Source of the DNA: Eledone cirrhosa
Lineage: Eukaryota
Length of the DNA: 64,000 nt
Assembly: GCA_964016885.1 (NCBI GenBank)
Contig: OZ024761.1
Span: 26,784,001 to 26,848,000, forward strand
Reading direction: 5' to 3'
Below are positions 9,079-37,340 of the stretch, one piece after another (position 1 is the first letter of the stretch; each line of letters starts with the position of its first letter). Below the pieces are notes generated by a model that was not told where the DNA came from, made no database searches, and saw only the letters and a list, made by a program, of their open reading frames with translations. The translations under genes were made by a program, and so were the position numbers.

Positions 9079-9471
9079 GGTGTGTGTGTATACACACAGA
9101 CAGACACATAGACACATATTGTATATCAACCGTTGAAAAGATCTGTCTAGCTCGCTACTAATTATAAAAACAACTTACAACACTGCTTTCCAATAAGTTC
9201 ACAAATTCCCTGGTCCCCAATTCAACACCTGAGTCATACAGAGTTACCTAACTTGGTCCATCATGGAGTGTCTCGCAAATTACTTCATTGTACAACATAG
9301 CATGACCCCTTCACTTGATCTTCAACTGTTGTGTAGTGTCTGTTTGCTAGTAAGAACTTGCCATATAGCTTCCGGTAGTACATAGTATATTATCTTATCT
9401 CTGGTCTCTCTCAATTGTATATATATACTATATATACAATCTTTTGATCTTATATATTATGTATACTCCAT

Positions 9472-9561
9472 TATGTATACTCCAGTCCTACAAACTGTAG
9501 AGTGCTTCTTATCCGATATCTGCATTGCTTTATTGTACTACAATAAAACTCACCTCCTACA
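9472..9561 (+). mobile_element. Short repeat, putative pLTR 3' end, family C
   Basis: Near-identical reverse complement at 46604-46694. Contains the actc...gagtgc hairpin. Confidence 0.55.
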
Positions 9562-9563
9562 TA

Positions 9564-9634
<71 letters not shown>
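9564..9634. repeat. (TATC)n microsatellite at the 5' flank of the Tx1-like element
   Basis: About 17 perfect units. Confidence 0.95.
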
Positions 9635-9873
9635 ATATTAATCTAGCTGTCGTCTGTTCTACAGTGTGGATGTCATTCACTTCGCACAGAAGTTTTGTTC
9701 AAATTTATTGAGGAAATTTTGTGAGTTCAAACTTAATTTTGATACAATTGTGTAGCTTGACCCTCCGTCTGAACTGTCAGGCGGTGGGTCAGCTCATCTT
9801 TACCCCTCCTAGAGGTGAAAAACCTGTTTTAAAAAAAAATTTTTGTGTAAAAAATTTCAATCGTCTAACAGAA

Positions 9874-11751
9874 ATGTTAAACGCAGCGAACGAAAATAGT
9901 GGTGGGGGGACAGCGGTAAGAGTTGTAAGCTCGCACGCTTTAGTCCTCCCTTCCTTCCCAACTAACGTCATAGAGAAGGAAGGAAAAATGAAAATAAAAA
10001 CGGACGAATCTGCGGAGAAAAAATTAAATGACGAAAACAACGAAGAAAAAAAATTTGAAAAATTGCATGACAATACTAATAACACAAACAAAGACACAAC
10101 AAACAAAAAAATAACAGTTGAAAATAACATAATATCAGAAAACAAAGCAGACGACAAGATTTCATTTGCACAGAAAACAAAGAAATCTTTGACTTATATA
10201 GCGGAAAACATTTCAGATGTGGTACGAAGGATCACGGACGCAAAACAATACATAAGTGAAGGTGAGAATGTTATTTTATTGGTAAAAATGCCTCAAGAAT
10301 TCACGAAAGACATTGAAAGCCGAACGGTCAAGTTTCGGACCATCAACAACAGTACAAAAAAACCTGAACAGCCTTCTCAAGCAGATATCAAAACAGTACT
10401 CGCAGAAGTACTGAATGAAACAACTTTCATAAGAAAAGACAGACTGTATGGAAGCCTAGCAATTATCATGAAGAACGAATCGGCGGCAAAAAAATGTGCT
10501 TTGTCACCGATTCGTTCGAAAAATTTCACCTTTTATCCATCTTATATGGGAAAAAAAACTCAACGCATATGGCTGGATGCAATGATGCCAGATGTGGACT
10601 ACTGCTGGCTCATAGCTGGCTTCATCGATCCAGTGAATGACAACGTGATTTCCATTGGGAAAACCACAGGCAATGCGTTCAGTGGAACAGGTATAGAGCT
10701 GGTAGTACAAATGAAGCCTGAACGCATCGCCCAAATACCCGACAGAATCCTATTAGAGGACCACGGGTATATAAACATTAGCGTGGAGGGGAGAAGGCCG
10801 TCCTGCCATATCTGTGCAGGCAGAGGGCACCTGAAGGCCGCTTGTCCCCAACTCAACAAAAAGAAAACCCTGCTACCAACACCAGCTCCACCACCACCAC
10901 CACAACAGATAAACAAACAACAAAACTCAGTCCCACCCAACCCGTCCCTCAGTAACACCACAACACCACCACAACACAAACAGTCACAACACATTACCCC
11001 AAAACAAAATACAGGCCCACCCAACCTCTCACTCAATAAAACAACACAACCACCGCAGACACAACACACAACACAGTCTAACATAGTGACATCCATCTCC
11101 CCCACAAAGAAAACCAACACGGAAACATTACCAGCAAACATACCTCTTCCCTCCAACACTGAAGATAACCCAACGAATTCGGAGGAAGAAACGGAGTCCT
11201 TCAGACAGATTAAAAGGAAAAAAAGAAAACATGTGCAAAACACACAAGGACAAACAACCCCCACCCAAATCGCAACACAATCTAACAAAACAGAAAACAC
11301 CCCTCCAGCAACAAACAAAACCAAACCTGCCCCTCCCCTCTTCGAAACACTCACACCATCGGAAAAAAAGACATTACACTATACTTACATCAACAGAAAC
11401 AATAATAAATTAAATGAACTCATATACAATAATCCTTCGGTACAAACCGAAGGTGTAAACTTTGTTTCATCAGAAAACCACCCACATTTAAAACTAATAA
11501 AAATCCCAATGAACCTCTACCAAAAACTAAAAAAGGATTTTAAGGAGGACGTAGGACCACCCTCTGTCAAACCCATAAACCGCGTCCTACTAAAAAGCTT
11601 TCCCCCTCCCCTTCCCCTCCCCAACACAACTCCAAACACCCCAACCCCACCACACACCGACGACCCCACACCACCACAAGACACCCCTTCACCCAACACC
11701 CCCGACCCCATGGAAGTCGTGCAACCCGAACCCCGGGAAGCGGAAAGGTAG
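9874..11751 (+). CDS. ORF1 gag-like nucleic-acid-binding protein (open from 9721; first ATG at 9874)
   Basis: Single CCHC zinc knuckle CHICAGRGHLKAAC; Pro/Thr/Gln-rich low-complexity C-terminal half; basic patch FRQIKRKKRK; directly upstream of an APE-RT ORF. Confidence 0.85.
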   Translation: MLNAANENSGGGTAVRVVSSHALVLPSFPTNVIEKEGKMKIKTDESAEKKLNDENNEEKKFEKLHDNTNNTNKDTTNKKITVENNIISENKADDKISFAQKTKKSLTYIAENISDVVRRITDAKQYISEGENVILLVKMPQEFTKDIESRTVKFRTINNSTKKPEQPSQADIKTVLAEVLNETTFIRKDRLYGSLAIIMKNESAAKKCALSPIRSKNFTFYPSYMGKKTQRIWLDAMMPDVDYCWLIAGFIDPVNDNVISIGKTTGNAFSGTGIELVVQMKPERIAQIPDRILLEDHGYINISVEGRRPSCHICAGRGHLKAACPQLNKKKTLLPTPAPPPPPQQINKQQNSVPPNPSLSNTTTPPQHKQSQHITPKQNTGPPNLSLNKTTQPPQTQHTTQSNIVTSISPTKKTNTETLPANIPLPSNTEDNPTNSEEETESFRQIKRKKRKHVQNTQGQTTPTQIATQSNKTENTPPATNKTKPAPPLFETLTPSEKKTLHYTYINRNNNKLNELIYNNPSVQTEGVNFVSSENHPHLKLIKIPMNLYQKLKKDFKEDVGPPSVKPINRVLLKSFPPPLPLPNTTPNTPTPPHTDDPTPPQDTPSPNTPDPMEVVQPEPREAER

Positions 11752-11784
11752 GTCTCTACACTCTCCTTTGGCTCTGCCGCCCAC

Positions 11785-14700
11785 ATGGATGTGTTAAGAG
11801 TAGGATGTTTGAATGCACGTGGCCTGGGCTCAACTTGGAAGCAAGCAAAGCTTCTAAATGACCTCAGGTCATGTAGTATAAATGTAATGGTTATCTGTGA
11901 GACTCGAATCAGCGTCATGCGGCAGCTGGCCCCCACCTTCGATGACTTTGAGGTGCATGCATCTCTCTGTCAACCTGGAGGTGGGGGTGGGGTTGTCGTG
12001 CTGCTGCAAAAACACCTGGGTCTTGCCGTACAGGTTGTGCACTCGGACCCGGAGGGTCGTTTGTTGGTGCTAGACGTTGGCAGTAGTGAAAGTGCGGCCT
12101 TGAGACTGGTCGCCGTCTACTCCCCTTTCGGAGCTGAACGGCCCGACTTCTTCCAGCGTTTGGAGACTTTTCTGGGAACGTCGCGTTCCCTGCTTCTAGC
12201 GGGGGATTGGAATGACATCCTGGATGCACGTTGGGACTATGCAGGAGCATGTCCTAATAGAGGGGGGTGTAACAGCCTCAAGGGGTTACTCGACCGTTTT
12301 AACTTGGTCGATAGATATCGACTAGATTTTCCAACTGTGCCTACCTGGACTTGGAGAAACCACAGTGGTCAATCTAGATCGTACTTAGATAGATTCTTAG
12401 TTAGAAGTAAGGATAGGGACATATTAAGCTGTCCAGAAATGCGCACGGTTGGCTACACGGATCACAAATTAGTGACCTGCGTGGTCAATCTCGAGAAAAC
12501 ACATAGACAGGGTCCCGGTTACTGGAAACTTAATTTGTCTTTACCGGCAAAAGAGACTTACAGAAACCGGATTAGCAGATTAGTTAAGGAGAGGTTGACG
12601 GGTGCAATCGTCAACAACCGATGGTGGGCATCTCTCAAAAGAGAGATTAGAACAGAATCAATAAGTTATAGCAAGATGTTAGCTGCCAATAGGAATAGAA
12701 ACGAGAAAGAATTAACAGGTAAATTAGAAGAGGCAATCAAGAGCGAAGATGTGGCCAGAGTGCTGGCATCGAGGACGGCCTTGAACCAGTTTTTCGATGC
12801 AAAGCATGAAGGCTGCGTCATTCGAAGTAAAATACGTGCTCTAGGTAATGAGGGGGCCAAAGCCGTTGGATGGGCCCGCGTGACAGAAGCTAAAAGTGGA
12901 AATCGATCCACCATCCGGTCGTTGCAAGACGAAGATGGACGAGTGATCCGGGAGCCTAAGCAGATGTGCGAGGCCTTTCAAAAGCACTTTGCCCGATTGT
13001 TCGGGGGAGGCGAGGGTCCGGGCCGGGGCGTGGATTTCGGTCCATACTTCGACGGCCTGCCGCGTCTCTCGAACAAAGAGGCAGAGTCCTGCGAGGGACC
13101 AATCTCGGCTGATGAGATCGGAGATGCGCTGAGCCAATGCAGTAGACGCAAATCTCCAGGTCTCGATGGTATACCTTACGAACTTTATTTAGCAATGCCG
13201 GTCTTCTTCTCCGAACTCCTCGAAGCGGTCTACTGCAATTGGCAGCAGAACGGGAGAATTCCTTGTTCTGTAGCCAAGGGCGTAGTCACGCTGGTGAGGA
13301 AGGACGAGAAAAAGGGGGATAGTATAAATAATTTTCGGCCCATAACCCTGCTAAACACAGAGTTAAAGATTTTGGCCAAGGTGTTAGCAAAGAGGTTGGC
13401 GCTGGTCGTGGGTGGCCTGGTGGGAGATGCGCAGACATGTGCTATCCCATCCAGGTCCATTCACGATAACCTCCACCTCATGCGATACATCATAGAGAGG
13501 GTTGGCAACAAACCCGGCTTCGGTGGGGCCCTGATCAACTTGGATCAGTCTAAGGCCTTCGATAGGGTCGACCATGGTTACCTGGATGCGGTGCTAGCGG
13601 CGGCTGGGTTCGGTCCTGTTTTCAGAGGCTGGATCACTGCCCTACATAGCAACCACATCTGTTCTAGGATCAAGGTGAACGGCTACCTTTCGAAGCCGTT
13701 CGAAATCACACGATCCATTCGACAGGGGTGCCCTCTCTCCTCCCTTCTGTACGTATTGACTCTCGAGCCTTTACTGAGGAAGTTGGAGTTGTTGCAGGGT
13801 ATCCCCCTGGAACCAGGATTGAGCAAAGCGGTGTCGGCCTACGCCGATGACGTAACAGTAATGGTATCAACCGACTCGGAGATCGAGGCGATCGGTACCT
13901 TACTGGAGGAGTACGAAAGGTTGTCAGGAGCGAAACTGAACCGGGAAAAATCCATCGGGCTGCAACTCGGAACGTGGAGAGGCAAACCGATGCCTCCTGA
14001 CGGTGTCGTCGGACACTGGACGGAGGGCCCGGTAAAGTTGCTTGGGGTCTGGTTTGGACCGGACCTCCAGGTGGAAAAGAACTGGAACGAGGTTACGAAC
14101 AAGGTGTTTGCACTAACCCAGAAATGGGCCAAGTGTAAGCTGTCCCTAAAAGGCCGGGCGGAGGTGGCGAACATTTACATAGCGTCCGTCACTTACTACC
14201 GCCTGACTGTCGTGCCTTGCCCTAAGGAAACACTCACCACCATGGAACGCATGCTCTTCCAATTTCTTTGGAAGAAGCGTCCTCCTATGGTGAGAAGATC
14301 CATCTGCTGCCAACAACCTTCGAAAGGAGGGCTGGGGATGCCGTGGTTGATGATGCGTAGGCACGCATTAAGGCTACGGCACCTACAGGTATTCCTCACT
14401 GGTCAACCGGTGTGGGCTCCGTTCGTGAAACGAGCCTTTCCGAGACTCGTCTCACTCACCGAGCTACAGTCCTGGGTCAAGCAAAGATCCGGAAAACTGG
14501 GAGACTGGCACACTGAGTGTGCTCAGGCGCTCAGGGCTCTCTGGCAAGCGGGCCGGGCCATCGGTGGAGAATCCACCTCATCATTCTATAGAGGGCTGGT
14601 GGCTAGCAGGGGCGATGACACCCTTGGAGAGTCGCTGGACATGGAAGAAGACGAACTGGCCAGCCTGTTCGGTAGGACTTTCGGCCCAGGACCAATGGAC

Positions 14701-15222
14701 AACTTCCAGAAGTCACTGGCCTGGCAGTGCTACCGGGGGGCTCTACCCGTTCGAGAGAGGCTCTACAGACACGGGCGCCCGGGCAGGGATCCCTCAAAAA
14801 AGATTTGCCCTAGATGCGTGCGTCACGAAGAAACCGTAGCGCACGCATTGGTGCAATGTCCGGGCGTGGCTGATCTGTGGGGCTACGCCGAACAACTGCT
14901 GTCGCGGGTGGCGCCGATTAAATTGACCGCCGAGTCCGTGATGACAATCAAACCGCCTCCCCTCTTCACAAAGGAAGCAAAGGCGGTTTTTCTGTGCGTA
15001 ATAGCCATGTTGAAAGAGGTTGTTTGGTGGACACGATTGAAAGGTCTGAGGTCAGGCAACTTCCTCTCTGGCCATAGTCTGGTCTACTTCTTCCGATATC
15101 ACTTCGGAAGAAGGATAAGAATGGAGAGAGAGGTGCTTGGCCACAGGCAGTTTTATGAAAGGTGGGTGATAGTGGCGAGAATGGCTCGTGTAAATGGGCC
15201 TTCTCTGTATACCATCCTGTAG
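11785..15222 (+). CDS. ORF2 polyprotein: AP-like endonuclease, reverse transcriptase and C-terminal CCHC zinc finger (1145 aa)
   Basis: APE motifs CLNARGL, CET, AGDWN, SYLDRF, TDH; linker GPGYWKLN; RT motifs KSPGLDG, FRPITLLN, LDQSKAFDRV, RQGCPLS, YADD; zinc finger CPRC...ETVAHALVQC. This set is characteristic of Tx1/L1-clade elements. Confidence 0.96.
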   Translation: MDVLRVGCLNARGLGSTWKQAKLLNDLRSCSINVMVICETRISVMRQLAPTFDDFEVHASLCQPGGGGGVVVLLQKHLGLAVQVVHSDPEGRLLVLDVGSSESAALRLVAVYSPFGAERPDFFQRLETFLGTSRSLLLAGDWNDILDARWDYAGACPNRGGCNSLKGLLDRFNLVDRYRLDFPTVPTWTWRNHSGQSRSYLDRFLVRSKDRDILSCPEMRTVGYTDHKLVTCVVNLEKTHRQGPGYWKLNLSLPAKETYRNRISRLVKERLTGAIVNNRWWASLKREIRTESISYSKMLAANRNRNEKELTGKLEEAIKSEDVARVLASRTALNQFFDAKHEGCVIRSKIRALGNEGAKAVGWARVTEAKSGNRSTIRSLQDEDGRVIREPKQMCEAFQKHFARLFGGGEGPGRGVDFGPYFDGLPRLSNKEAESCEGPISADEIGDALSQCSRRKSPGLDGIPYELYLAMPVFFSELLEAVYCNWQQNGRIPCSVAKGVVTLVRKDEKKGDSINNFRPITLLNTELKILAKVLAKRLALVVGGLVGDAQTCAIPSRSIHDNLHLMRYIIERVGNKPGFGGALINLDQSKAFDRVDHGYLDAVLAAAGFGPVFRGWITALHSNHICSRIKVNGYLSKPFEITRSIRQGCPLSSLLYVLTLEPLLRKLELLQGIPLEPGLSKAVSAYADDVTVMVSTDSEIEAIGTLLEEYERLSGAKLNREKSIGLQLGTWRGKPMPPDGVVGHWTEGPVKLLGVWFGPDLQVEKNWNEVTNKVFALTQKWAKCKLSLKGRAEVANIYIASVTYYRLTVVPCPKETLTTMERMLFQFLWKKRPPMVRRSICCQQPSKGGLGMPWLMMRRHALRLRHLQVFLTGQPVWAPFVKRAFPRLVSLTELQSWVKQRSGKLGDWHTECAQALRALWQAGRAIGGESTSSFYRGLVASRGDDTLGESLDMEEDELASLFGRTFGPGPMDNFQKSLAWQCYRGALPVRERLYRHGRPGRDPSKKICPRCVRHEETVAHALVQCPGVADLWGYAEQLLSRVAPIKLTAESVMTIKPPPLFTKEAKAVFLCVIAMLKEVVWWTRLKGLRSGNFLSGHSLVYFFRYHFGRRIRMEREVLGHRQFYERWVIVARMARVNGPSLYTIL

Positions 15223-15598
15223 GTAAAGAAGTAAAGGAGAGGGGAGCACCTTCTCCATGTGCTCCCCGGGCAAAGGATTGCACACTTTTTCGGGGGTGTG
15301 TGCAACCCCCATCACGTCCCCTCCCTTTTGAGGTTATTTTCGATTATTTTCATGTTACACCCTTTTTACTCGATTATATGTAAACTCCCCCTTTGTATTT
15401 GTCCCTTCTTTTTATGCCTTTATGGTAAATAAAGAAATCTATCTATCTATCTATATATATAGACATATGTGCATTCATTACTACATATATACATACAGTA
15501 ATGCAAGTATATATTTATAGTTAATTTATAAGGCAATCAACGTTTATCATTGACTGACCAACAGTTAAAAATACACATATAAATAAATAAATAAATAA

Positions 15599-21361: not shown

Positions 21362-22340
21362 TATGGTTTCTTATATAGGCACAAGGCCAGCAATTTTGGT
21401 GGTTTTTTTTTGGGGGGGGAGGGAAAGTCGATTAAATCGACCCCAGTGGGCGACTGGTACTTTATTTTATCGACCCCCGTAAGGATGAAAGGCAAAGTTA
21501 ACCTAGGCGGGACGGGATTTGAACTCAGATCATTAAGTGACGTAACTATATGCTGCTAAGCATGGCGTCCGACCCACCATCGATACTGCCAATCCACCGA
21601 GAAGTTTAATAATAATTGTGTCTACAAGGCCAGCAATTATTCCAGTGTATTACTGGTACTTTATTTTATCGACCCCCGTAAGGATGAAAGGTAAAGTTAA
21701 CCTCGGCGGGACGGGATTTGAACTCAGATCATAAAGTGACGTAACTATATGCTGCTAAGCATGGCGTCCGACCCACCATCGATACTGCCAATCCACCGAG
21801 AAGTTTAATAATAATTGTGTCTACAAGGCCAGCAATTATTCCAGTGTATTACTGGTACTTTATTTTATCGACCCCCGTAAGGATGAAAGGTAAAGTTAAC
21901 CTCGGCGGGACGGGATTTGAACTCAGATCATAAAGTGACGTAACTATATGCTGCTAAGCATGGCGTCCGACCCACCATCGATACTGCCAATCCACCGAGA
22001 AGTTTAATAATAATTGTGTCTACAAGGCCAGCAATTATTCCAGTGTATTACTGGTACTTTATTTTATCGACCCCCGTAAGGATGAAAGGCAAAGTTAACC
22101 TCGGCGGCACGGGATTTGAACCCAGATCATAAAGGGCCGTAACTCTTTGTTGCAAAGCATGGCGTCCGATACTGTGTCTGACGCTCTACCAATTCTGCCA
22201 ATACACCGCCCTAAGTTACTTTAAAATAATGATTTCTACTACTACGCACAAGACCAACACTTTTGAATGGCAAGGGCCGTAACTCTATACGTCAAAGCAT
22301 GGCGTCCGACCCTCTACCGATACTGCCAATCCACCGCGCA
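21362..22340 (-). mobile_element. Head-to-tail SINE array including a 199-bp-period tandem duplication
   Basis: 'gaagtttaataa' junctions at 21348, 21601, 21800 and 21999; units nearly identical; further SINE fragments to 22340. Confidence 0.9.
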
Positions 22341-28401: not shown

Positions 28402-28920
28402 GACCACCATCACCACCACCACCACCAATACTACAATCACCACCACTACAACCACCACCACCTTCACCACCACCACTACAACAATCAGCAACACAACCAC
28501 TACATCTCCACTACAACCACTACCAACACCACTACAACCACTACCAACACCACTACAACCACCACCACCACCACTACAACCACCACCACCACCACTACAA
28601 CCACCACCACCTTCACCACCAGCACTACAACAACCACCACCACCAACACCACTACAACAACTACAACTCCACTACAACCACTACCAACACCACTACAACC
28701 ACCACCACCACCACCACTACAACAACCAACACAACCACCACTACATCCACCACACCACCACCACCACCACTACAACCACCACCACCTTCACCGCCACCAC
28801 TACAACAACCACCACCACTAACACTACTACAATAACCACCAACCACCAACAACACTCCTCCCCTCCACCACCTACCGCCGCCCCCTCCACCTAACACCAC
28901 CACCACCACCCCTCCTACCG
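28402..28920. repeat. (CCA/ACA)n degenerate trinucleotide tract
   Basis: Direct inspection. Confidence 0.9.
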
Positions 28921-35655: not shown

Positions 35656-35852
35656 CATACATATATGCATGTATATATATATATACATTCATATATGTAT
35701 ATATATACATACATATATGCATGTATATACACGTATATATATACACACATATGTATGTATGTGTGTATATATAGAAGAGAGATGTATGTGTATGAATCAT
35801 AAATATATTTATATACGTATGTGTACATATATTGTATGTACAAAAAAAGTTT

Positions 35853-37340
35853 GTGGTGGTGGTGGTGGTGGTGGTGTTAGTGGTGGTGGTGTTGGCGGTG
35901 TTGGTGTTGGTGTTGGCGGTGTTGGTGGTGGTGGTGGTGTTAGTGGTGGTGGTGTTGGCGGTGTTGGTGGTGGTGGTGGTGGTGTTGGTGGTGGTGGTGG
36001 TGTTAGTGGTGGTGGTGTTGGCGGTGTTGGTGGTGGTGGTGGTGGTGGTGGTGTTAGTGGTGGTGGTGTTGGCGGTGTTGGTGTTGGTGTTGGTGGTGTT
36101 GGTGGTGGTGGTGGTGTTAGTGGTGGTGGTGTTGGCGGTGTTGGTGGTGGTGGTGGTGGTGTTGGTGGTGGTGGTGGTGTTAGTGGTGGTGGTGTTGGCG
36201 GTGTTGGTGGTGGTGGTGGTGGTGGTGGTGTTAGTGGTGGTGGTGTTGGCGGTGTTGGTGTTGGTGTTGGTGGTGTTGGTGGTGGTGGTGGTGTTAGTGG
36301 TGGTGGTGTTGGCGGTGTTGGTGGTGGTGGTGGTGGTGGTGGTGTTAGTGGTGGTGGTGTTGGCGGTGTTGGTGTTGGTGTTGGTGGTGTTGGTGGTGGT
36401 GGTGGTGTTAGTGGTGGTGGTGTTGGCGGTGTTGGTGGTGGTGGTGGTGGTGGTGGTGTTAGTGGTGGTGGTGTTGGCGGTGTTGGTGTTGGTGTTGGTG
36501 GTGTTGGTGGTGGTGGTGGTGTTAGTGGTGGTGGTGTTGGCGGTGTTGGTGGTGGTGGTGGTGGTGGTGGTGTTAGTGGTGGTGGTGTTGGCGGTGTTGG
36601 TGTTGGTGGTGGTGGTGTTGGAGGTGGTGGTGTTGGTGGTAGCGGCGGCAGTGGAGGCAGTGGGGGGTAATGGTGGCAGTGTTAGTGGTGGCATTGTTGG
36701 TGGTATTGGTGGTGGTGTTGGCGGTGGTAATGGGGACAGTGTTGGTGGTGGCGGCGGCAGTATGGGGGGGGGGGGGGGTAAAGGTGGTAGTGTTAGCGGT
36801 GGTAATGGTAGCAGTGTTAGTGGTGGCAATGTTGGTGGCAGTGGTGGTGGTGGTAAGGGTGGCAGTGGTGGTGGCAGTCATGGTGGAGCTAATGGTATCA
36901 GTGATGGTGGTGTTGGTGGTGGTAATGGCGACAGTGGTGGCAGTCGGGGCAGAGGTAATGGTATCAGTGATGGCAGTGGCAGTGGCAGTGGTGGAAATGG
37001 TGGCAGTGGTGATAATGGCAGTGGTTGTAATGGCGGCAGTGGTGATGGTGCTGGCGTGGTAATGGTGGCAGTGGTGATAATGGCGGCAGTGGTGGTAATG
37101 GCGGCAGTGGTGATGGTGCTGGTGGTGGTAATGGTGGCAGTGGTGATAATGGCGGCAGTGGTGGTAATGGCGGCAGTGGTGATGGTGCTGGTGGTGGAAA
37201 TGGTGGCAGTGGTGATAATGGCGGTATGTGGTGCTGGTGCTGGTGGTGGTAATGGTGGCAGTGTTGGTTGTAATGGCGGCAGTGGTGGTGATGGAAATGG
37301 TGGCAGTGGTGGTGGTAGCAGTGGTAGTAATGGCGGTGCT
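35853..37340. repeat. (GGT)n-based minisatellite with higher-order units grading into a degenerate GGN tract
   Basis: Recurring unit gttagtggtggtggtgttggcggtgttggt.... Confidence 0.9.

What the first reader, a model, noticed from the sequence alone, without database searches (positions are those of the whole stretch)
9617..15458. Intact Tx1-like retrotransposon inserted at an (ATCT)n/(AT)n junction: candidate new microsatellite-specific family
Seen: both ORFs are uninterrupted. An identical 22-bp direct repeat (atctatctatctatctatatat) flanks the element at 9617-9638 and 15437-15458. There is no poly(A) tail beyond aataaagaa. Established: Tx1-clade elements often have sequence-specific APE endonucleases, for example Kibi at (TC)n, Koshi at (TTC)n, Keno at U2, Mutsu at 5S and Dewa at tRNA arrays. 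Inference: a young, potentially active element specific for (GATA/TATC)n, a target I do not recognise among those families.
Basis: partly seen in the sequence, partly recalled or inferred. Interest (0 to 1): 0.75.

Follow-up and report, generated by a model that had tools for sequence, protein, structure and literature searches.

The report
Octopod retrotransposon targeting GATA repeats
An intact copy of a young jumping-gene family, with about 1,700 copies in what is probably an octopus genome, sits in a GATA/TATC repeat as most of its relatives do, likely because its DNA-cutting enzyme recognises a short TATC motif; repeat-seeking elements of this kind are known from fish and crocodiles, and this target was not in the papers I could search.

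Summary
Observation confirmed; interpretation largely right, with three corrections. The element (9639-15439) has intact ORF1 (625 aa) and ORF2 (endonuclease, reverse transcriptase, zinc knuckle). The genome holds 1,664 exact 3' ends; 1,615 continue ATNTAT and 1,035 ATNTATCTATCT. TATC also lies on the 5' side (54 of 63 full-length copies; background 0.7%), so it is a target, not only a tail.
Corrections: (1) the first 3 nt after AATAAAGAA are element-encoded (ATC or ATA, inherited with subfamily), so the duplication here is about 19 bp, not 22; (2) the target is a short motif, (A)TC^TATCT, with no preference for (ATCT)/(AT) junctions; (3) it is one of several sister families sharing the target and stacking head to tail.
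Placement in the L1/Tx1 group is solid; a link to the named fish Tx1 families is weak. The target was absent from the papers searched; Repbase could not be checked. This scan found the same group before on other DNA of this genome and in another. Side lead: ORF2 is bracketed by splice-like signals and a predicted RNA zipper, with no splicing shown. Verdict: new member of a known kind.

The parts
9469..9562 (+). 3' fragment of an unrelated short repeat family; its other copies are followed by (AT)n, not TATC
9564..9638 (+). (TATC)n target array, ending in ATATAT
9620..9638 (+). 5' copy of the target-site duplication, 19 bp (left end inferred from other copies)
9639..9873 (+). 5' UTR; 57 of 63 full-length copies start at element position 1-3
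9874..11751 (+). ORF1, 625 aa; one CCHC zinc knuckle (about 10801-10851, weak Pfam hit), likely RNA-binding domains before it, low-complexity T/P/N-rich C-terminal half
11746..11753 (+). splice-donor-like motif AG|GTAGGT overlapping the ORF1 stop; GT(AAG/GAG/AGG)T in 25 of 26 sister copies, in all three ORF1 frames
11785..15222 (+). ORF2, 1145 aa: APE endonuclease (about 11785-12500), reverse transcriptase (about 13309-14049, YADD at 13840), C-terminal zinc knuckle (about 14710-14880)
11740..11809 (+). 5' arm of a predicted long-range RNA pairing with the ORF2 stop region
15190..15264 (+). 3' arm of that predicted pairing; holds the acceptor-like TGTAG|G at the ORF2 stop
15223..15436 (+). 3' UTR ending AATAAAGAA, no poly(A)
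15437..15439 (+). element-encoded 3-nt tail (ATC in the youngest subfamily, ATA in an older one)
15440..15458 (+). 3' copy of the target-site duplication, 19 bp

Best explanation
This is a full-length, intact copy of a young L1-group, probably Tx1-type, non-LTR retrotransposon whose copies sit at the short motif (A)TC^TATCT, mostly inside (TATC)n/(GATA)n arrays, likely because its APE endonuclease nicks that motif. Shown: structure, copy number, flanks, duplications of 16-24 bp (median 19) and a 3-nt element-encoded tail. Inferred: the endonuclease nicks the GATA strand at about 5'-AGATA^GA-3'; the freed 3' end primes reverse transcription on an RNA that ends in ...AATAAAGAA-ATN, perhaps plus a few target-like bases that pair with the primer; a second nick about 19 bp away gives the duplication. 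Each insertion leaves a fresh TATC site at the element's 3' end, so the family and its sisters stack head to tail.
For: Genome-wide: 1,615 of 1,664 3' ends continue ATNTAT and 1,035 of 1,664 ATNTATCTATCT. 289 minus-strand 5' ends have CTATCTATC within 22 nt upstream, against 348 minus-strand 5' ends counted with a pattern one base longer, so at most 83%. Sample of 99 copies: 54 of 63 full-length copies have TATCTATC within 40 nt upstream; background 0.7%. In 35 duplications anchored on non-repeat sequence, target and 3' flank agree in 27, 31 and 20 of 35 at the first three positions and in 35, 34 and 34 of 35 at the next three. Tail type tracks body variants: at 15358, 55 of 59 ATC copies against 6 of 21 ATA copies carry the window base, p = 2e-8. 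13 of 16 ATA-tailed copies landed where the target reads C at that position, so this base need not match. TAT(C/A)T is about 50 times commoner than CTAT(C/A)T in the window, yet only 10 of 99 copies continue TATAT. Sister families with other tails (ATT, AGT, AAT) are followed by TATCT in 13 of 18. The endonuclease loop that probes the target in L1 and Tx1L (PMC1950540, passages) is nearly constant among the sisters and differs in the next-closest proteins.
Against: No biochemical test. 14 of 36 5'-truncated copies show no duplication, and only 18 of 36 have TATCTATC upstream; I read these as deletions across the 5' end but did not see their empty sites. 5 of 18 sister 3' ends are not followed by TATCT, two being in (TACC)n. 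ATNTAT alone is weakly informative: 10% of background positions match it. The TAT after the tail could be read by the enzyme or by RNA pairing; these data cannot separate the two. Survival bias (insertions in repeats tolerated better) may add to the enrichment. No empty allele of this locus was found. Only 1 of 35 position-picked full-length copies had both ORFs intact.
Confidence: 0.8

Rival explanations
1. Target choice comes mainly from RNA-DNA pairing: the transcript runs into TATC repeats, a loosely specific endonuclease nicks AT-rich DNA, and only nicks that can pair with the RNA end are extended (as in the L1 snap-velcro model).
For: The 3' flank starts in phase with TATC in 86 of 99 copies; there is no poly(A); pairing contributes to L1 target choice (PMC4014453, abstract only).
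Against: The C just before the nick is present in the target in 30 of 35 sites whether the tail is ATC or ATA; it lies on the side of the nick that RNA pairing cannot select. In the anchored loci the TATC run after the element matches the upstream copy, so no extra units were added.
Confidence: 0.12
2. The TATC repeat is an element-made tail that seeds microsatellites; 5' arrays are tails of older neighbours.
For: 31 of 99 copies have a family or sister 3' end within 160 nt upstream; 14 truncated copies have TATC on the 3' side only or no duplication.
Against: Duplications that run on into unique sequence contain the TATCT on both sides (e.g. L132, L158, L182); 68 of 99 copies have no such neighbour; the window array follows a repeat whose other copies end in (AT)n.
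Confidence: 0.04
3. Random insertion with selective survival in microsatellites.
For: The genome is very rich in microsatellites.
Against: Base-exact phase at the 3' junction in 97% of 1,664 ends, the same bias in copies 99-100% identical to the window, and scarcity in the far commoner (AT)n.
Confidence: 0.02

Closest known systems
Kibi (TC)n and Koshi (TTC)n of teleosts (PMC4494074 passages and section 15; PMC3812793 passages)
   Same: APE-type Tx1 elements that insert into a microsatellite
   Different: Target unit TATC/GATA; host probably an octopod; the RT region is only 34-36% identical to BAC82605, BAC82606 and BAC82609, which I recall, unconfirmed by any search, as proteins of the Kojima and Fujiwara 2004 families; not nested among them
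Crocodilian Tx1 families on (TTCC)n/(TTTC)n (PMC4494074 section 15)
   Same: Tetranucleotide microsatellite target; preference rather than strict specificity; several families share a target
   Different: Their targets are pure pyrimidine strands; this one is mixed purine/pyrimidine; no sequences were on hand for comparison
Waldo (ACAY), Mino (AC), Dong (TAA), Togen (TG) (PMC3812793, PMC4640811 passages)
   Same: Microsatellite-targeting non-LTR elements
   Different: Other clades and other repeat units
Human LINE-1 (PDB 8sxt; PMC1950540 passages; PMC4014453 abstract)
   Same: Two ORFs, APE-RT layout, short nicking consensus, target duplications
   Different: No poly(A) here; CCHC-type ORF1; narrow duplication length; a high share of full-length copies (715 exact 5' ends to 1,664 exact 3' ends)
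Active L1-Tx1 families of Octopus vulgaris (PMC13282606, first third read plus term search)
   Same: 13 recently active L1-Tx1 families, 421 near-full-length insertions; may include these families
   Different: The main text never uses the word 'target'; its library and supplements were not seen

Membership tests
L1 group of non-LTR retrotransposons | ORF2 with N-terminal APE endonuclease followed by RT, catalytic residues intact | tested here: met
L1 group of non-LTR retrotransposons | Separate ORF1 for a nucleic-acid-binding protein | tested here: met
   625-aa ORF; CCHC knuckle below Pfam cut-off (E 0.32); Atlas look-alikes with zf-CCHC at 0.91-0.92
L1 group of non-LTR retrotransposons | Target-site duplications and 5' truncation | tested here: met
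   16-24 bp in 35 anchored loci; 36 of 99 copies truncated
Tx1 clade | RT phylogeny groups with described Tx1 families | tested here: inconclusive
   Quick tree: sister to the fish TX1-labelled group at SH-aLRT 88, unstarred. Careful tree: own lineage at 100/100, link to fish group unresolved. Identity 34-38% to fish TX1-labelled proteins against 29-33% to a set of three that score higher on human L1. No Xenopus Tx1L, Keno or mammalian L1 row was available.
Tx1 clade | Frequent sequence-specific insertion into a repeated target | tested here: met
Target-specific family by the rule of PMC4494074 | More than 20% of flanks are one type of sequence | tested here: met
   1,035 of 1,664 3' flanks; 54 of 63 5' flanks
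Kibi / Koshi | Target (TC)n or (TTC)n | tested here: not met
   Target (A)TC^TATCT
Kibi / Koshi | RT nested in that lineage | tested here: not met
   Separate clade from BAC82605/06/09; identity of those accessions as Kibi/Koshi is recalled, not confirmed
Tx1 clade | Endonuclease nicks the target in vitro | not testable with these tools
   needs a bench assay
Already catalogued Repbase/Dfam family | Match to a named consensus with a stated target | not testable with these tools
   no such library on hand

The most novel reading that the evidence does not exclude
A cephalopod Tx1 radiation that not only targets GATA repeats but carries its whole ORF2 as an intron: a donor at the ORF1 stop and an acceptor at the ORF2 stop, brought together by a 3.4-kb-range RNA zipper, would give an ORF1-only mRNA that in this family rebuilds the same last codon and a stop, a copia-like way to set the ORF1:ORF2 ratio that I did not find described for LINEs (listing only).
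Probability: 0.2. Interest if true: 0.7.

Novelty: new member of a known kind. Interest (0 to 1): 0.42.

Why it matters
It adds a mixed purine/pyrimidine repeat, GATA/TATC, to the list of Tx1 microsatellite targets, in a family with more than a hundred intact ORF2 frames. The tail variants act as a natural experiment that separates the element's 3' end from the target: the base before the nick is chosen even when the tail does not match it, which points to the endonuclease. That makes the endonuclease-versus-RNA-pairing question testable in one system. In practice, GATA microsatellite markers in this animal are insertion hot spots, and automated annotation will misplace the element's 3' boundary. 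The principle itself (repeat-targeting Tx1) is established.

Tried and rejected
Preference for the (ATCT)/(AT) junction: nick positions are spread evenly in 35 arrays of 32 nt or more; upstream and downstream run lengths do not differ (79 loci, p = 0.67); TATA follows the run in 27 of 87. Rejected.
Stop-codon readthrough between the in-frame ORFs: the gap from ORF1 stop to ORF2 start is 24, 33, 40, 41, 43 or -4 nt in sisters, so the frame is not kept. Rejected.
Spliced genomic copies: 0 matches to a junction pattern for this family and 0 to a degenerate one for sisters; none of 7 internal deletions in the sample matches the predicted intron.
Reads: no RNA holder listed. No donor-to-acceptor joint among those shown for X1, X2, X5, X6 (15 of 70 joints shown) or for X1 and X6 at higher stringency; these runs are contigs of unknown or DNA type, so this says nothing on splicing or expression.
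Empty allele of the window locus: none in the assembly.
Metagenome loci (31 of 108 candidates confirmed) were distant (25-32% identity in the 9 inspected); none of those 9 showed a TATC end. The targets of the next-closest unnamed ENA proteins (48-53% RT identity) could not be seen.
Literature: ten searches gave no GATA/TATC-targeting Tx1. Kojima and Fujiwara 2004 and the Fujiwara 2015 review are not held. The supplement and the figure of PMC4494074, which list targets of further Tx1 families, could not be seen and may bear on novelty. No structure was predicted.
Full report
Observation. The 22-bp direct repeat is at the stated coordinates and no poly(A) follows aataaagaa. ORF1 runs 9874-11751 (625 aa) and ORF2 11785-15222 (1145 aa from the ATG), in one frame with a single TAG between them. 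ORF2 carries Pfam Exo_endo_phos, RVT_1 and zf-RVT and aligns over 850 residues to human L1 ORF2p with the catalytic residues in place. ORF1 has one CCHC knuckle below Pfam's cut-off and resembles CCHC proteins in the Atlas.

Host and family size. The window lies in a 3.0-Gb assembly. The closest named protein is from Argonauta hians, 67% identical over the RT region, so the host is probably an octopod; the species was not determined. A 20-letter 3' end occurs 1,664 times and a 24-letter 5' end 715 times. All 40 scored matches to the last 300 bp were 100% identical. Of the 150 best endonuclease matches, 129 lie in a 1156-aa open frame (counted by hand). Position-picked copies are 92-100% identical to the window, median 97% (59 copies), and only 1 of 35 full-length ones had both ORFs intact. 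So the family has a long tail of older copies and a recent burst, to which the window copy belongs.

Target or tail. Genome-wide, 1,615 of 1,664 3' ends continue ATNTAT and 1,035 ATNTATCTATCT. The first motif matches 10% of background positions because of (AT)n, the second 0.04%. On the 5' side, 289 minus-strand ends have CTATCTATC within 22 nt (plus-strand matches were counted several times and not used) against 348 counted with a pattern one base longer. I fetched 100 loci: 40 chosen for a perfect 3' match, so biased to young copies, and 60 taken in order along contig 1, the first 60 of 80 listed. After dropping 4 rows at locus edges, 1 duplicate and 1 without alignment, 99 copies had both junctions in view. 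Of 63 full-length copies, 54 have TATCTATC in the 40 nt upstream (background 0.7%). Of 36 truncated copies, 18 do, and 14 show no duplication.

Where the element ends. The duplication search forced a TAT start, so I repeated it anchored only on non-repeat sequence: 36 of 99 copies could be anchored and 35 were used (L040, a tandem duplication, left out; L158 and L159 are a duplicated pair, both kept). Target and 3' flank agree in 27, 31 and 20 of 35 at the first three bases after AATAAAGAA, then in 35, 34 and 34 of 35. Those three bases are ATC in 67 and ATA in 32 of 99 copies; ATC copies are younger (median identity 99.3% against 95.6%), and the tail type tracks five variants in the 3' UTR (best p = 2e-8, 80 copies). 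So they are part of the element. Duplications measured from the fourth base are 16-24 bp, median 19. The window fits: tail 15437-15439, duplication 15440-15458 and 9620-9638. The pre-insertion consensus is (A)TC^TATCT; the C before the cut is there in 13 of 16 ATA-tailed and 17 of 19 ATC-tailed copies.

Motif, not junction. After the tail, 61 of 99 copies read TATCTATC, 25 TATCT only, 10 TATAT and 3 otherwise. Nicks are spread evenly along arrays, and 24 of 79 sites have 8 nt or less of pure TATC. The (ATCT)/(AT) junction in the window is incidental.

Sister families. Several families with different UTRs, 80-90% identical in RT, share the ending AATAAA..GAA plus a 3-nt tail; one degenerate pattern finds 2,844 more 3' ends (controls 7). 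Of 18 sister 3' ends picked by their own sequence, 13 continue TATCT after tails such as ATT, AGT or AAT, 2 lie in (TACC)n and 3 in other sequence; 8 of 8 distinct 5' ends of one sister family follow TATCTATC. 31 of 99 copies sit within 160 nt of a family or sister 3' end. The endonuclease hairpin loop that probes target DNA in L1 and Tx1L (PMC1950540, passages) is nearly constant in the sisters and differs in the next-closest proteins.

Mechanism. Shown: the anatomy above. From established knowledge: APE-type LINEs insert by target-primed reverse transcription, and Tx1L has a sequence-specific endonuclease (PMC1950540). Inferred: a nick on the GATA strand near AGATA^GA, priming on an RNA that ends in ATN or a few bases further, and a second nick about 19 bp away. 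Whether the TAT after the cut is read by the enzyme or paired with RNA, as in the L1 snap-velcro model (PMC4014453, abstract), is open; the C on the other side of the cut favours the enzyme. I put 0.8 on endonuclease-led targeting.

Placement. The octopod sequences form a clade (100/99) with a group of unnamed ENA proteins as sister (100/100) (42 rows). The link to fish proteins labelled TX1 and to BAC82605/06/09 had SH-aLRT 88 in a quick tree (58 rows) and was unresolved in the careful tree. Those accessions are, from recall only, proteins of the Kojima and Fujiwara 2004 families. Tx1 is likely, not proven; it is not Kibi or Koshi.

Novelty. Published microsatellite targets that I saw: (TC)n, (TTC)n, (TTCC)n, (TTTC)n for Tx1 (PMC4494074, passages and section 15), ACAY, AC, TAA (PMC3812793, passages), TG (PMC4640811, passages). 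Octopus papers report active L1-Tx1 families without targets (PMC13282606, first third plus term search) or an RTE element with no mention of Tx1 (PMC9115989, passages). PMC10294476, PMC11203168, PMC9004415 and PMC2684134 (passages) added nothing on targets. Ten searches found no GATA/TATC-targeting Tx1, but the two key reviews, the supplement and figure of PMC4494074, and Repbase were out of reach. This scan noted the group before (e1-9510316, e1-9593200 in this genome; e1-9514738 in another); those notes are not independent support.

Side lead. A donor-like GT(AAG/GAG/AGG)T lies at the ORF1 end in 25 of 26 sister copies, in all three frames, against 3 occurrences in the 26 x 1,200 nt upstream. 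ORF2 ends in TAG in 29 of 32 sisters, followed by G in 30 of 32. Joining the two sites in the window would rebuild Arg-stop; in at least one sister family it would not. No spliced genomic copy was found. After note e1-8673698 I tested pairing of the ORF2 start and stop regions: z from -4.6 to -11 against shuffles in 9 of 9 elements, own pair better than the mean of foreign pairs in 9 of 9 but better than the best foreign pair in only 5 of 9; in the window the stop region is the best partner (-56.1 kcal/mol; best elsewhere -51.9). The zipper may explain the acceptor-like sequence without splicing, or may help splicing. I give the intron reading 0.2.

Verdict. Real, well supported and of a known kind: new member, interest 0.42.

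Noticed in passing
L238, L241-L244, L250, L257-L259, L264 (sister family), ORF2 start: ORF2 begins with ATA, not ATG, and the ORF1 stop TAG overlaps it (gap -4). This would fit AUG-independent reinitiation as recalled for human L1.
   Followed up: partly
L263, L265 3' ends: Two AGT-tailed sister copies sit in (TACC)n arrays, hinting at a relaxed or shifted target in that family.
   Followed up: no
L034, L039, L063, L165, L183, L187, L190, upstream flank: A palindromic, MITE-like repeat ends next to a TATC array that received an insertion in 7 of the loci held; it may be a reservoir of targets.
   Followed up: partly
window 9469-9562: 3' fragment of another short repeat with AATAAAA, with copies up to 100% identical elsewhere that are followed by (AT)n.
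   Followed up: partly
L040/L041 (G000:C1:348917500-348935000): Three tandem copies; the first two spacers and the 5' junction share the same odd 18 letters, suggesting tandem duplication or an assembly repeat rather than three insertions.
   Followed up: no
window 21453-22169: 3.6 tandem copies of a 199-bp unit, 97% alike, which looks like a SINE-type repeat (label from recall).
   Followed up: no
window 35849-37316 and 28403-28910: Long (GGT)n and (ACC)n trinucleotide arrays with higher-order periods of 63, 114 and 177 bp in the first.
   Followed up: no
window 10901-11075: An 84-bp tandem duplication inside ORF1; copies differ in length here.
   Followed up: no
runs X5, X6 (organisms B, C): Contigs of other coded organisms cover most of the element with few differences, so close relatives carry near-identical families.
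   Followed up: partly
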